DNA of 64,000 nucleotides from Mobula birostris (lineage: Eukaryota), in the NCBI RefSeq assembly GCF_030028105.1, contig NC_092397.1, positions 12,663,271 through 12,727,270 on the forward strand, given 5' to 3'. Position numbers and translations under genes: made by a program. Shown piece after piece: positions 3,597 through 60,083 of this stretch. The first letter of the stretch is position 1. The number at the start of each line of letters is the position of its first letter. The notes below the pieces were generated by a model. It did no database searches. It was given only the letters and a program-made list of their open reading frames with translations, and had not been told where the DNA came from.

Positions 3597-5713
3597 TCAC
3601 TTGGCCGTCCTGGAGCAAGAAGATTCAGTCACCTGCGTGGGCCCGATCCACAGTTGCTCCAAGACTTGAAATTTACAGGTCATTGTCTGCGGGGAAAAGC
3701 AAAGGCCAGTATTAAAAGAGTTTCCCGCCGGTACCCCAGCAGATTCATGAATCCCCACCAGGTTCCAGTGTCCCTGGGGACAGGGCCCCCGCCCCTCTCT
3801 CCCGAGACCACCAGTGCACTGATCGCTCACCTTGGCATATTGAGGATCCTTGTGGAAGGGACAGTTCCGGGAAACAGAACTCTTCTTGCAGACGGTAGTT
3901 CGCAGCTCCAGGGTGAGATAGTAAATGAACCCCGAGACCACCTGCAAGAGCACCTTACAGTCAGAAAGGCCTCAAAACATCTCTACGGGGTGTCTGTGTG
4001 TATCGAGCCAGGAGTGGTCATCCATCTGCACACACCCCCCACCTTTACTCTGCTGGTCATAAGAAATAGGAGCAGCAGTCGGCCATCTGGCCCGTCGAGC
4101 CTGCTCCGCCACTCAATAAGATCATGACTGATCTGGCCATGGACTCATCTCCACCCACCTGCCTTTTCCCCATAAACCTTAATCCCCCTACTATGCAGAA
4201 ATCTATCCAGCCTTGTCTTAAATATATTTACTGACGTAGCCTCCACTGCTTCATTGGGCAGAGAATTCCACAGATTCACCACTCTCTGGGAAAATCAGTT
4301 CCTCCTCATCTCTGTCTTAAATCTACTGCACTGAATCTTGAGGCTATGTCCCCTAGTTCTAGTCTCACCTAGCAGTGAAAACAACTTTCCTGCCTCTATC
4401 TCTTTCATAATTGTATTTTTCACTAAAATTTCCTCTCATTTTTCTGAATTCCAGCAAGTACAGTCCCAGGCGATTCAATCTCTCCTTTTCGTCTCACACC
4501 CTCCTCTCTAGTCTCTACATGGTGAACCTCCAAAGCCAGTAGATCCTTCCTCAAGCAAGCAGACCAGAACTGCACGCTGGACCCCAAGTGCCACGTCACC
4601 AGTACCCTGTACAGTTGCAGCATAACCTCCCTGCTCTTGAATTCAATCCCTCCAGCAGTGAAGTCCGACATCCAATTTGCCTGCTTGATAGCCCGCTGTA
4701 CCTGCAAACCAACATTTTGTGATTCATGCACAAGCACTCCCGAGTCCCTCTGCACAGCAGCGTGCTGCAATCTTTTACCATTTCAATAATAATCTGCTCT
4801 TCCTTTTTACCTTCCCAAGTGGATGACCTCGTATTTACCGACATTGTATTCCACCTGACAGACAGTTGCCTACTGACTTAACCTATACATATCTGTGTAG
4901 ATTCTCCGTATTCTCTCTCGCCCTCTCCCCCACATACTTCTCCCCACTCTCCCTTCCTGTTGCCCCTCCCTTACCCCTCCACCCCATCTTCCCCCTCTCC
5001 CATTCGTCCTCCCACTCTCCCTCCCTCTACTTCTCCCTCTCCCCCTCACTATTTTCCTCCTCCCTCACCTCCCCTCCTTCCCTTTCCTTCCTACCCCTTT
5101 TATCCCCTCCTTCTCTACTCCCATCCTCTCCTCCCATCCCCCTGCCCCACCCATCCCCTTCACCCTGTCCTCCCCACTTCTCCTCCTCTGCCCAGCCTGT
5201 CTATTCCCCACTTGCCCTCACTCTCTCCCCTCTCCATTGCTTCTCCCCTCCCCCTCTCCTCCCCAGTTCCCCTCCCCATCTACTACACACTTCCCCTCCT
5301 CCTCCCTCCCCACCCCTCACCCTCCTGCTCAATCTACCCTTCCTCCCCCTCTCCACCTTCCCCATCTCTCCTCCTCTCAACTTCCCCATTCCCCGGCTCC
5401 CCCTCCTCACTCTCCCCTTCTACTCCCCGCTCCCCCTGCCCCAACCCGTCCTCCCTCCCCTACCCCTCTCCTCCCTCCCCTCTCCTCTTCCTATTTCTCT
5501 CCCCATCACCTGTTTTTGGGCCGATAACACATTCGACACCGCGCTATGAAACAAGTCGCTGGATTTGCTGTTGAAGTCCTCCGCCGCCACCTGGATCGCG
5601 TTCACCACCCCGGGGTGATCTGTGGACACGGGGCAAAGGCCGCCCGGCATGCAGGGCGTCACCACCTCCGCCGCCCCCAACATCAACACCAACACCACCA
5701 GAACCGAACCCAT
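3597..5713 (-). CDS. Type-2 cystatin paralog A1, intact, 134 aa; exons 5713-5510, 3941-3831, 3686-3597
   Basis: Signal peptide MGSVLVVLVLMLGAA, MPGG N-terminal Gly, QVVSG across a phase-0 intron, four canonical Cys (VCKK..NCPFH; TCKF..SCS), LW in place of PW. All GT-AG sites are intact and there are no stops. Confidence 0.9.
4058..4910 (-). mobile_element. Old CR1 LINE 3' fragment in cystatin intron 1
   Basis: Degenerate CR1 RT C-terminus (QRDSGVLVHES...GIEFKSREVMLQLYRVLV) plus CR1-type 3'UTR. Shared by A-type copies at 27066-27919, 38152-39006, 45431-45533 and 53498-56488. Confidence 0.85.
4911..5505 (-). repeat. Polypurine G-rich low-complexity tract at the start of intron 1 (A1)
   Basis: Almost pure C/T on the + strand. 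Homologous tracts at 26432-27065, 37564-38150 and 53050-53497. Confidence 0.9.
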
Positions 5714-6246
5714 CTTCCTCCGCAGTAAAGCAAATAACAGGTCCTGGCGTCTTTTCCTCCGCCCTTCACTCGTCACTCCCACGTCTCTGGCCACGTCATC
5801 CTTCTGCGGGACATCCACTCACAAATCCCCAATCTCCCCACGTCTTTTTGTGACATTGCAAACACGAGAAAGGAGCAGATGCTAGAAATCCAAACAACGC
5901 ACACACAAACACAAAATGCTGGAGGAACTCTGCAGGCCAGGCAGCATCCATGGGGGAAAAGAAAGTACAATCGACGTTTCGGGCCTAGACCCTTCGGCAG
6001 GACTATGGAAAAGAGAGATTTTGGGCCAAGATATTTTCTTCAGGACTGAGAGGGAAGGGGAAAGACGTCTGGATAAGAAGCTGGAGGGAGGGGAAGGGCG
6101 CTAGCTGGATGGTGATAGGTGAAGCCGGGTGAGTGGGAGAGAGGAAGGAACTAGAGGGGAGAGGAGAGTGGACCATAGGGAAGGGATAGAACATAGAATA
6201 GTACAGCACAGTACAGGCCCTTCGGCCCACAATGTTGTGCCGACCC

Positions 6247-58062: not shown

Positions 58063-58119
58063 AGTCAAGGGCGTAGGAAATGACGCCAACGCCTGTTATT
58101 TTCTTTACTGCGTAGGAAG

Positions 58120-60083
58120 ATGGGTCCGGGTCTGTTGGTGGTTTTGGTGTTGATGTTGACGGCGGCGGAGGTGGGGGAGACCTCCATGCCGGGCGGCCTC
58201 AGCCCCGTGGCCACAGATGACCCCGGGGTTCTGAACGCCACCCGGGTGGCGGAGGAGGACTTTAACCGCAGATCCAACGACTTGTTTCACACCGCGGTGT
58301 CGAATGTGATATCGGCCCAAACACAGGTGATGGGGAGGGAAATAGGGGGAGGGGGAGGGGGAAGGGTCGATGGGGAGGGATGGGGAAGGCTGGGTAGGGA
58401 GGGAGGCGGAAGGGGTAGGTGGGGAGGGGAGGGGGAAGGGGTGGGTGGGGAGGGGAGGGGGAAGGGGTGGGTAGGGAGGGAGGGGGAAGGGACAGGTGGG
58501 TGGGGAGGGTGGGGGAAGGGGTGGTGAGGGGAGGGGGAAGGGTGGGTAGGGAGGGAGGCGGAAGGGGTAGGTGGGGAGGCGAGGGGAAAGGGGTGGGTGG
58601 GGAGGGAGGGGGAAGGGTGGGTGGGAAGGAGGCGGAAGGGGTAGGTGGGGAGGCGAGGGGGAAGGGGTGGGTGGGGAGGCGAGGGGGAAGGGGTGGGTGG
58701 GGAGGCGAGGGGGAAGGGTGGGTGGGAAGGAGGCGGAAGGGGTAGGTGGGGAGGCGAGGCAGAATGGGTGGGTGGGGAGGGGAGGGGGAAGGGTGGGTAG
58801 GGAGGGAGGCGGAAGGGGTAGGTGGGGAGGCGAGGCAGAATGGGTGGGTGGGGAGGGGAGGGGGAAGGCTGGGTAGGGAGGGAGGCGGAAGGGGTAGGTG
58901 GGTGGGGAGGGTGGGGGAAGGGGTGGTGAGGGGAGGGGGAAGGGTGGGTAGGGAGGGAGGCGGAAGGGGTAGGTGGGGAGGCGAGGGGAAAGGGGTGGGT
59001 GGGGAGGGAGGGGGAAGGGTGGGTGGGAAGGAGGCGGAAGGGGTAGGTGGGGAGGCGAGGGGGAAGGGGTGGGTGGGGAGGCGAGGGGGAAGGGGTGGGT
59101 GGGGAGGCGAGGGGGAAGGGTGGGTGGGAAGGAGGCGGAAGGGGTAGGTGGGGAGGCGAGGCAGAATGGGTGGGTGGGGAGGGGAGGGGGAAGGGTGGGT
59201 AGGGAGGGAGGGGGAAGGGATAGGTGGGTGGGGAGGGTGGGGGAAGGGGTGGGGAGGGGGGGCAGGGTGGGTGGGGAGGGAGAGGGAAGGATGTGAGGGT
59301 GGATGAATACAGAGCTCTGGTGGGGGACTGTCTTATTGATATTGAGCTCCAGATGATTCGTATCGCATCATTAAACAAAGGGGATGGCGATGGACTTTAG
59401 GATGGGGAGGGGGAGTAGGGTAGGGTGCGGAGAGGAGGTGATAGTGTGGGCAGGGGAGGAGGGGGTCGAGAGGGGCGCGGGGTTAGGGTGGGGAGGGGAA
59501 GTGGGGGGAGGAGAGGGAGAGAATACGGAGAGGGGGCTTGTGGAGTGTGAGGTGAGGAAGGGATGGGAAGGAAGGGGAAGTGCTGAGGAGTGGAGGGTCG
59601 AGTAGGGGCGAGGGAGGGTAAGTTTGCAGGAGGTGAGGAGCAGAGCGCCAGTGTGGGGGAATTCCCCGAGGCCCAGTGAAAGTAGTTTTTCAATCGCTGT
59701 GCCTGTGACTCTTGCAGGTGGTGGCGGGGTTAATGTACCACCTCTCCCTGGTGCTGAGAACCACCGTCTGCAGGAAGGCTGAACCTCGTTTAGAGAACTG
59801 CCCGTTTCACCAGGACCCTCAATATGCCAAGGTGAGTGATCAGTGCGCTGGTGGTCTCGGACGAGAGGTGGGGGAGGCGAGTGGGGGGGGGGTCCCATCC
59901 CCGGTGCAGACTGGAACATGGTGGGGATTCACGTATCTGCCGGGGTACCAGCGGGGAGCTCTTTTAATACTGGCCTCTTGTTCCTCCCCGCAGAGAACGA
60001 CCTGTACATATAAAGTCTGGTACCGCCCGTGGATTGGGCGCATGGAGGCGCACAGTGCTGAATGCTCCGGGGTGTTAAAGTGA
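58120..60083 (+). CDS. Canonical type-2 cystatin (cystatin C-like), intact, 136 aa; exons 58120-58326, 59718-59831, 59994-60083
   Basis: Signal peptide, MPGG, FNRRSNDLF (legumain-site Asn), QVVAG, CRK..ENCPFHQ, YRPWIG, four Cys, and a 38-codon exon 2 as in cystatin C. AATAAA at 60316. Orthology (CST3 vs CST6) cannot be resolved here. Confidence 0.93.
58330..59290 (+). repeat. G-rich minisatellite-like tract in intron 1 with an internal ~315-bp direct repeat at 402-bp spacing
   Basis: Units such as GGGTGGGTGGGGAGG and GGCGGAAGGGGTAGG; 58494-58809 is repeated at 58896-59211. Confidence 0.9.

What the first reader, a model, noticed from the sequence alone, without database searches (positions are those of the whole stretch)
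3597..60083. Expanded cystatin cluster with hypervariable protease-binding loops and a toxin-like signature of accelerated evolution
Seen: one canonical gene (QVVAG, RPW, SND) plus five A-type paralogs. Loop 1 reads QVVSG, QVVSG, QVVFV, VVSG (A4, exon 1 lost) and EVVWV; loop 2 reads LW, PC, TV, deleted and PS. Between the two intact paralogs A1 and A3, exon 3 differs at 20 of 87 nt by hand count. Fourteen of 29 codons change amino acid and only one change is purely synonymous, while the flanking intron and UTR look far more alike. Established: N-terminal Gly, QxVxG and PW form the papain/cathepsin-binding wedge. Exons diverging faster than introns in birth-and-death clusters is typical of venom and host-defence genes, and cystatins have been reported in snake venoms and stingray barb tissue. 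Inference: a lineage-specific family of neofunctionalised secreted cystatins (venom, skin mucus, anti-parasite or reproductive), with A3 probably no longer a classical cathepsin inhibitor.
Basis: partly seen in the sequence, partly recalled or inferred. Interest (0 to 1): 0.85.

Follow-up and report, generated by a model that had tools for sequence, protein, structure and literature searches.

The report
Devil-ray cystatin expansion at CST6 locus
Manta and devil rays carry about a dozen tandem copies of a protease-inhibitor (cystatin) gene, and a younger subset has rewritten its binding loops and lost the legumain-binding residue, likely to meet new targets on body surfaces; a venom role looks unlikely.

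Summary
In detail: six cystatin genes, the loop variants and the exon-3 count (20/87 nt, 14 replacements, 1 silent codon) are all in the sequence. The window holds the downstream part of a 150-kb array of 12 gene copies (6 intact) plus 7 orphan exon remnants. It lies between C11orf68/DRAP1 and BANF1/SART1, the position of cystatin E/M (CST6). Proteins identical to two window genes are labelled Mobula birostris. M. hypostoma has 10 members; the stinging Hypanus sabinus shows 3, none of the derived type. Intact derived genes (A1, A3, upstream U6) gained an N-terminal cysteine pair and lost legumain-binding Asn39; A3 and U6 also lost QxVxG and PW. Their exon-3 replacement sites outrun non-coding DNA (14/55 vs 141/1390, p=0.0013), but dN/dS>1 is not established from codons alone. 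Exon-3 trees conflict with flank trees, so gene conversion explains part of the signal. A U6-like spliced contig exists in a public run. Verdict: a real ray-specific expansion with probable loop-2 selection. Venom is unlikely; epithelial defence is inferred. New variant of a known kind, moderate interest.

The parts
3597..5713 (-). A1, intact derived cystatin: exon 1 5713-5510, exon 2 3941-3831, exon 3 3686-3597; N-terminal Cys pair, Asn39 lost, QVVSG, LW
   Evidence: identical to P0004; Pfam Cystatin 3.9e-18
15194..15489 (-). B1 orphan remnant: truncated exon 2, exon 3 with RPW, acceptor lost
19003..19318 (-). B2 orphan remnant: open exon 2 and exon 3, degenerate loop 1, no exon 1 found
26226..28380 (+). 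A2, frameshifted at codon 2 (break shared with M. hypostoma model P0006); exon 2 28036-28146, exon 3 28291-28380; QVVSG, PC; single N-terminal Cys
30451..30784 (+). B3 orphan remnant: open exons 2 and 3, intact splice sites, RPW, degenerate loop 1
37357..39435 (+). A3, intact derived cystatin: exon 1 37357-37560, exon 2 39124-39234, exon 3 39346-39435; Cys pair, Asn39 lost, QVVFV, TV
41514..41810 (+). B4 orphan remnant; exon-2 donor deleted, exon-3 stop lost; the NCBI model P0014 splices A3 exon 2 to this exon
45651..45982 (+). A4 pseudogene: no exon 1 found, exon 3 with loop-2 deletion and frameshift
48077..48407 (+). B5 orphan remnant; exon 2 frameshifted with stop, exon 3 open with RPW
52850..56949 (+). 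A5 pseudogene: start codon lost, frameshift in exon 1; EVVWV, PS; U6-like exon 2 with U4-like exon 3 (mosaic)
58120..60083 (+). C, intact canonical cystatin: exon 1 58120-58326, exon 2 59718-59831, exon 3 59994-60083; G, SND, QVVAG, RPW
   Evidence: identical to P0008; cystatin fold
61298..61444 (-). Last coding exon of BANF1 (barrier-to-autointegration factor); synteny marker of the CST6 locus

Best explanation
This is a tandem array of type-2 cystatin genes at the CST6 (cystatin E/M) position of a devil-ray genome, in which a younger subfamily has rewritten loop 2, likely under positive selection, and likely serves as secreted epithelial defence proteins with changed protease targets. SHOWN: 12 gene copies over 150 kb, 6 intact; 7 orphan remnants in the duplicated units; flanks C11orf68-DRAP1 and BANF1-SART1; mosaic paralogs; in A1, A3 and U6 a new Cys pair around Gly11 and loss of Asn39; in A3 and U6 loss of Gly59 and Trp106; cystatin fold kept in the model of the U6 counterpart. 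INFERRED: a three-gene core (Z, U4, C) predates the Mobula-Hypanus split and keeps the classical cathepsin role (U4 and C also keep the legumain site). Unequal crossing-over between LINE-rich 5-6 kb units multiplied the derived copy; conversion shuffled exons 2 and 3; selection fixed loop-2 replacements. A1 would inhibit papain-like enzymes but not legumain; A3 and U6 would bind classical cathepsins weakly and legumain not at all, and would act on other (for example parasite or microbial) proteases or partners. The Cys pair would tie the N-terminal trunk into a ring. Own odds: locus identity 0.9, derived genes functional and selected 0.6, skin/gill/mucus role 0.45.
For: Gene map; all 12 of 12 DNA matches to A3 exon 3 lie inside the array. 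Synteny: BANF1, DRAP1/NC2-alpha exon 25 aa, Bles03/C11orf68 and SART1 exons; human BANF1 and CST6 on one 11q13.1 BAC (PMC1459182 table passage); Chondrichthyes listed with E/M and F but no cystatin C (PMC2784779 Table 2); the C9 gene hits cystatin F best. Selection: exon-3 0-fold events 14/55 vs non-coding 141/1390, p=0.0013; exons 1 and 2 p=0.92 and 0.16; strict 4-fold sites 5/59, 6/60, 4/64, at intron level; loop 2 6/6 positions variable vs 29/107, p=0.0006; same-unit B remnants show 0-fold 0.087 < 4-fold 0.142, intact derived genes 0.160 > 0.057. Function: QVVWV/HTAL and QVVFV recur in M. hypostoma (P0005, P0001); a contig in run X3 with the 17-difference pattern of U6 bridges intron 1 at GT..AG; model pLDDT 87, 1.1-1.4 A to cystatin C; N39A abolishes legumain inhibition and W106A cathepsin V inhibition in human E/M (PMC8070812 Table 1). 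Cys pair found in 8 of 89 single-domain proteins fetched, all Mobula. Conversion: AU tests reject flank trees on exon 3 (p<=1.5e-5) and the exon-3 tree on flanks (p=0.017).
Against: Codon-only tests do not show w>1: pairwise p=0.18-0.31, M0 w=2.55 p=0.15, site model without C p=0.36-0.47. Over 7 A-type copies exon-3 dS tree length (0.93) exceeds dN (0.78) and non-coding (0.23); ML and NG86 synonymous estimates exceed intron divergence in all exons. A3 vs U6 alone is not significant (p=0.22). Loop 1 is not enriched (2/5, p=0.49). The frameshifted A2 also differs from its M. hypostoma counterpart at 4 loop-2 residues vs 1 elsewhere in the mature domain, so loop 2 changes even in a likely pseudogene, and persistence across species is weak proof of function. 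By sequence the proteins score higher to human cystatin C (74.7 bits) than M (50.9). No tissue of expression is known; the defence role rests on analogy.
Confidence: 0.55

Rival explanations
1. Relaxed constraint plus gene conversion: surplus copies decay, conversion homogenises introns while old exon-3 variants are shuffled, and no new function exists.
For: 6 of 12 copies broken. Z vs U4: intron 2 7%, exon 2 5%, exon 3 19% with 7/18 silent differences. Exon-3 w=0.84 over 7 copies. Loop-2 turnover in frameshifted A2. Motif losses all point toward loss of activity.
Against: Among A1/A3/U6 silent 4-fold sites and the bases beside exon 3 sit at intron level while replacements are 2.5-fold above it. 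Exon 1 is under purifying selection (w 0.3-0.6). All intact derived genes have both new cysteines; single-Cys copies are broken. U6-like spliced contig.
Confidence: 0.22
2. Venom component: the derived cystatins were recruited to the spine epithelium.
For: Cystatins made 19% of barb-extract protein in Neotrygon kuhlii and are highly expressed in Potamotrygon spine tissue (passages of PMC11053709 and PMC6315956). Exon-over-intron divergence is also reported for snake gene arrays (PMC6609765 passages).
Against: M. birostris has a vestigial embedded spine (PMC5101608 passages); M. hypostoma is recalled to lack one (no call). The stinging Hypanus sabinus shows 3 core-type clusters and no derived member. 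The review reads venom cystatins as protective; spine extracts include mucus and epithelium.
Confidence: 0.08
3. Reproductive secretion: derived cystatins act in uterine milk, seminal fluid or epididymis, parallel to the mammalian CRES subgroup that lost QxVxG and PW.
For: CRES members keep the fold but lost inhibition (PMC2784779 passages); A3/U6 have the same motif pattern; human E/M is linked to placenta (PMC8070812 passage). Mobulids nourish embryos with uterine milk (recalled).
Against: No tissue data; dasyatids share that reproductive mode (recalled) yet show no derived copies. The paper search for uterine milk plus cystatin listed no paper with both terms among the 15 shown of 35.
Confidence: 0.12
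4. Switchable last exon: orphan B exon 3 (RPW) is an alternative terminal exon, so A3 makes both a canonical-loop and a variant-loop protein.
For: NCBI models in both Mobula species join A3-like exon 2 to a B exon 3 (P0001, P0014); 6 of 7 B exon-3 copies stay open to their stop and 5 of 7 keep RPW.
Against: P0014 is a four-part chimera that runs through a lost stop, typical of homology-driven models; A3's own exon 3 and poly(A) signal (39920) lie before B4; B exons diverge like neutral DNA.
Confidence: 0.05

Closest known systems
Cystatin E/M (CST6), type-2 cystatin, MEROPS I25B (MEROPS label recalled)
   Same: Position next to BANF1 in the DRAP1/C11orf68/SART1 block; three exons; signal peptide; two C-terminal disulfides; C and U4 keep Gly, Asn39, QxVxG, PW.
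   Different: Single gene in human and listed with no lineage-specific expansion (PMC2784779 Table 3); here 12 copies. No five-residue E/M insertion; derived copies lack Asn39 and add an N-terminal Cys pair.
Primate salivary cystatins (CST1/2/4/5 beside CST3)
   Same: Tandem birth-and-death array of secreted type-2 cystatins with pseudogenes (PMC4201479 passages).
   Different: Different locus and ancestor; the three inhibitory motifs are kept in almost all of those, lost in A3/U6.
CRES subgroup (CST8 and kin)
   Same: Cystatin fold without QxVxG/PW; model of the U6 counterpart matches mouse CRES at 1.6 A.
   Different: Eutherian, different locus, independent origin; tissue here unknown.
Stingray barb and snake-venom cystatins
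   Same: Type-2 cystatins; ray barb cystatins may come from this locus (inferred, sequences not seen).
   Different: The derived subfamily was found only in Mobula, not in Hypanus.
Habu snake small-serum-protein array (PMC6609765)
   Same: LINE-rich tandem array, intron divergence about 0.05-0.065 with KA/KS above 1 between young pairs.
   Different: Unrelated protein; shows the signature is not specific to toxins.

Membership tests
Type-2 cystatin | Cystatin domain and fold | tested here: met
   Pfam PF00031 for P0004, P0008, P0002, P0009; models and Foldseek
Type-2 cystatin | Signal peptide, three exons, two C-terminal disulfide pairs | tested here: met
   Hydrophobic N-terminus and four invariant Cys; no signal-peptide predictor was run
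Classical papain-inhibiting cystatin | Gly11 + QxVxG + PW | tested here: met
   C, U4, Z meet all three; A1 has QVVSG and LW
Classical papain-inhibiting cystatin | QxVxG + PW in A3 and U6 | tested here: not met
   QVVFV/TV and QVVWV/TA; not filed as classical inhibitors
Legumain-inhibiting cystatin | Asn39 | tested here: not met
   Ser in A1, A3, U6, A2; Asn kept in C, U4, U3, A5
Cystatin E/M orthologous family | Genomic position beside BANF1 (human 11q13.1) | tested here: met
   DRAP1, C11orf68 and SART1 as human neighbours are recalled
Cystatin E/M orthologous family | Five-residue insertion of the human protein relative to cystatin C | tested here: not met
   A1 aligns to cystatin C with one residue fewer (feature from PMC8070812). 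Filed as positional orthologue only
Cystatin E/M orthologous family | Groups with tetrapod CST6 in a tree | tested here: inconclusive
   Tree has no labelled CST6 row and long outgroup branches
Cystatin E/M orthologous family | Epidermal expression; inhibition of cathepsin L/V and legumain | not testable with these tools
   Run tissues are not on record; no assay
Venom toxin gene family | Expression in venom tissue and toxic or venom-protective activity | not testable with these tools
   No spine library; distribution argues against
Positively selected multigene family | w>1 by codon models | tested here: inconclusive
   p=0.02-0.03 with C, 0.36-0.47 without; significant only against non-coding baseline

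The most novel reading that the evidence does not exclude
Devil rays evolved a private subfamily of cystatins with a disulfide-cyclised N-terminal trunk and exchangeable loop-1/loop-2 modules that gene conversion recombines between paralogs, giving a small combinatorial repertoire of surface inhibitors aimed at parasite or microbial proteases rather than host cathepsins and legumain.
Probability: 0.2. Interest if true: 0.7.

Novelty: new variant of a known kind. Interest (0 to 1): 0.42.

Why it matters
Cystatin E/M was listed as a single-copy family with no lineage-specific expansion (PMC2784779, Table 3). Here its locus carries 3 genes in a stingray and 10-12 in devil rays, with natural variants at exactly the residues that mutagenesis shows to control legumain and cathepsin binding, plus a Cys pair not seen in the other single-domain cystatins fetched. 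That is a ready natural series for inhibitor specificity and a candidate for mobulid skin or gill defence. It also shows that exon-faster-than-intron divergence is no venom marker, and that three NCBI models here (P0014, P0009, probably P0001) look chimeric.

Tried and rejected
Run search: no RNA holder listed; 5 runs with word shares 0.04-0.07, RNA only by guess, tissue unknown. Contig depth cannot rank genes, so no expression level is claimed. No contig specific to A1 or A3 was identified, and no true joint from A exon 2 to B exon 3 was seen: the apparent 39234-41729 joint in X3 and X5 is a Z-type exon 3 (inserted letters match Z), and B4 exon 3 is covered by one depth-4 contig that includes intron bases; this does not show absence. 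CpG decay as cause of exon-3 excess: 2 of 20 A1/A3 differences are CpG-type; rejected. Clustered multi-base changes: adjacent differences 9 vs 8.1 expected for A1/A3; not the driver. Import of B or C exon-3 tracts into A1/A3/U6: no shared tract seen by eye. Site models on exons 1 and 2: p=0.95, 0.85. Earlier findings: three look-ups empty. C5 and C7 cystatin-domain loci were not identified. No complex prediction: no same-host cathepsin or legumain chain was on hand. S-S distance of the new Cys pair could not be read from the model output. Paper searches that found no report of this cluster: (open-access library only).
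Full report
OBSERVATION. A1, A3 and C are intact. A2 is frameshifted at codon 2, A4 lacks exon 1 and has a broken exon 3, and A5 lacks its start codon and is frameshifted. 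The A1/A3 exon-3 count is exact: 20 of 87 nt, 14 replacements, 1 silent codon, against 5-7% in the flanks.

EXTENT. The window is G000:C33:12663271-12727270 of a 4.0-Gb genome; 11 of 12 exon-1 matches lie on C33 within 150 kb. Upstream stretches add six copies, in window coordinates -91 kb to -6 kb: Z (intact with a 22-kb intron 1; equals model P0016), U3 (exon 2 cut short), U4 (intact; QVVSG, PW, SND), U5 (stop in exon 1), U6 (intact; QVVWV, HTAL) and U7 (frameshifts). Total 12 copies, 6 intact. Seven orphan 'B' exon-2/3 remnants ride in the same 5-6 kb units, which occur in both orientations; 43% of the window matches interspersed repeats found in fetched loci outside the array. All 12 of 12 DNA matches to A3 exon 3 are in the array.

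ORGANISM AND DISTRIBUTION. Proteins identical to C and A1 are labelled Mobula birostris. The profile search (8000 candidates scored, 36 hits) plus the member look-up give 10 M. hypostoma proteins on one contig, with counterparts of Z, U4, C, A1, A2, A3 and U6; 3 Hypanus sabinus clusters (C-, U4- and Z-like by sequence) and 1 Pristis protein. The tree pairs Z, U4, U6 and C with their M. hypostoma partners and Hypanus P0011 with C (86/98) but leaves the base open. These are annotation counts, so unannotated Hypanus copies are not excluded.

WHICH CYSTATIN. The array is flanked by a BANF1 exon 1.2 kb after C, SART1 exons further on, and DRAP1 and C11orf68/Bles03 exons upstream. BANF1 and CST6 share a human 11q13.1 BAC (PMC1459182, table passages; a second table there shows shifted columns); the other three as human neighbours are recalled. 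PMC2784779 (passages and Tables 2-3; supplements not read) lists cystatins E/M and F but not C in Chondrichthyes, and no expansion for E/M. The C9 gene hits cystatin F best. Against this, A1 scores higher to human cystatin C than M and lacks the E/M insertion. I file the array as type-2 cystatins at the CST6 position.

ANATOMY OF THE DERIVED COPIES. Aligned to cystatin C, A1, A3 and U6 place cysteines at positions 8 and 14 around Gly11, and all have Ser for Asn39. A3 and U6 also replace Gly59 and Pro105-Trp106. The Cys pair occurs in 8 of 89 single-domain proteins fetched, all Mobula (the set is 50%-cluster representatives, not a census). Copies with one of the two cysteines (A2, A5) are broken. 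In human E/M, N39A raises the legumain Ki from 0.25 to >100 nM and W106A the cathepsin V Ki from 0.47 to >100 nM (PMC8070812 Table 1 and passages). The model of the M. hypostoma U6 counterpart keeps the fold (pLDDT 87; 1.1-1.4 A to cystatin C).

SELECTION. For: among A1, A3, U6, exon-3 0-fold sites show 14 events in 55 vs 141 in 1390 non-coding sites (p=0.0013; about 0.004 after three exons), exons 1 and 2 none; strict 4-fold sites equal introns; loop 2 is 6/6 variable (p=0.0006; window chosen with the data in view); B remnants show the opposite 0-fold/4-fold ratio. Against: pairwise w for A1/A3 is 2.0-2.4 in exon 3 (p=0.18-0.31) and 0.83 over the mature domain; my M2a vs M1a test gives p=0.021-0.031 with C and 0.36-0.47 without; M0 w=2.55 vs 1, p=0.15, falling to 1.32 when U7 and A2 are added; NG86 and ML synonymous rates, which include 2-fold sites and multi-hit codons, lie 2-4 times above introns in all exons; loop 1 is not enriched (p=0.49). 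Rows with broken frames were left out of codon tests for that exon.

CONVERSION. Diversity over 9 units peaks at 0.21-0.28 in the first 70 nt of exon 3 against 0.03-0.13 around it; intron trees are star-like while exon 3 has 99% branches; A5 joins a U6-like exon 2 to a U4-like exon 3. AU tests reject each region's tree on exon 3 and the exon-3 tree on introns. Z and U4, whose split likely predates Mobula-Hypanus, differ by 7% in intron 2 but 19% in exon 3 with many silent changes. So introns are an unsafe clock for the old pairs; for the young trio, low silent and adjacent-intron divergence favours selection over age.

EXPRESSION. In runs guessed to be RNA, contigs bridge intron 1 at GT..AG (X3, X4) and a Z-type contig joins exon 2 to exon 3 (X3, X5). 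One X3 contig differs from A3 exon 1 at 17 places, the count and visible sites of U6, and carries the splice joint. Tissue is not on record.

MECHANISM AND RIVALS. The core genes likely do the classical job; the derived genes likely lost legumain binding first, gained a trunk-tethering disulfide, then diversified loop 2 with exon shuffling by conversion. An epithelial defence role is inferred from human E/M skin biology (abstract listings; PMC8070812 passages) and from cystatin abundance in stingray barb tissue (PMC11053709, PMC6315956 passages; primary proteomics paper not read). Venom is unlikely because the derived set was found in rays with a vestigial spine (PMC5101608 passages) and not in Hypanus. 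Decay with conversion (0.22), reproductive use (0.12), venom (0.08) and alternative last exons (0.05) remain. Other papers seen as passages only: PMC4201479, PMC6609765, PMC10707392, PMC11832194, PMC6485097, PMC4488702. No supplement was read; tissue tables in ray transcriptome supplements could bear on the expression question.

VERDICT. A real, ray-specific expansion at the CST6 locus; individual genes are already annotated as 'cystatin-like', some as likely chimeras, and my searches found no description of the array. New variant of a known kind; interest 0.42.

Noticed in passing
window 26226-26240: The codon-2 frameshift of A2 is shared with the M. hypostoma model P0006, yet the rest of the frame is intact in both; the short first ORF ends on a TGA that overlaps an in-frame ATG, so a signal-truncated product by re-initiation is conceivable.
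   Followed up: partly
window 37357-48407 and upstream U3/U4: NCBI models P0014 (A3 exons 1-2 + B4 + A4 exon 2 + B5) and P0009 (U3 exon 1 + U4 exons 2-3) look chimeric; the intact A3 with its own exon 3 was not among the proteins returned.
   Followed up: partly
window 58346-59327: Intron 1 of C holds a 1-kb G-rich purine array (402-nt unit x2.4); shorter versions sit in intron 1 of every A copy.
   Followed up: no
window 6774-7718 (-), 9168-10190 (-): LINE-like ORF fragments (RT-like and ORF1-like; family label recalled) between gene units.
   Followed up: no
L016:7108-8185 (G000:C9:92.62 Mb): Separate type-2 cystatin with QVVAG, best solved-structure hit cystatin F.
   Followed up: partly
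G000:C5:33.78-33.86 Mb and C7:41.46-41.49 Mb, C7:99.99 Mb: Further cystatin-domain exons (three, three and one Pfam matches); family not determined.
   Followed up: no
L024:5895-9827 (+): Long open LINE ORF1 (zinc knuckle) and ORF2 (endonuclease, RT) inside the SART1 region.
   Followed up: no
L023:9059-9520 (+): Weak Pfam OSTM1 match (E 1e-4, below cut-off) on the strand opposite SART1; possible retrocopy or chance.
   Followed up: no
exon 1 of C, U3, U4 vs A1, A3, U6: An N-glycosylation sequon (NAT) in the helix of the core genes is lost (NAI) in the derived genes.
   Followed up: no
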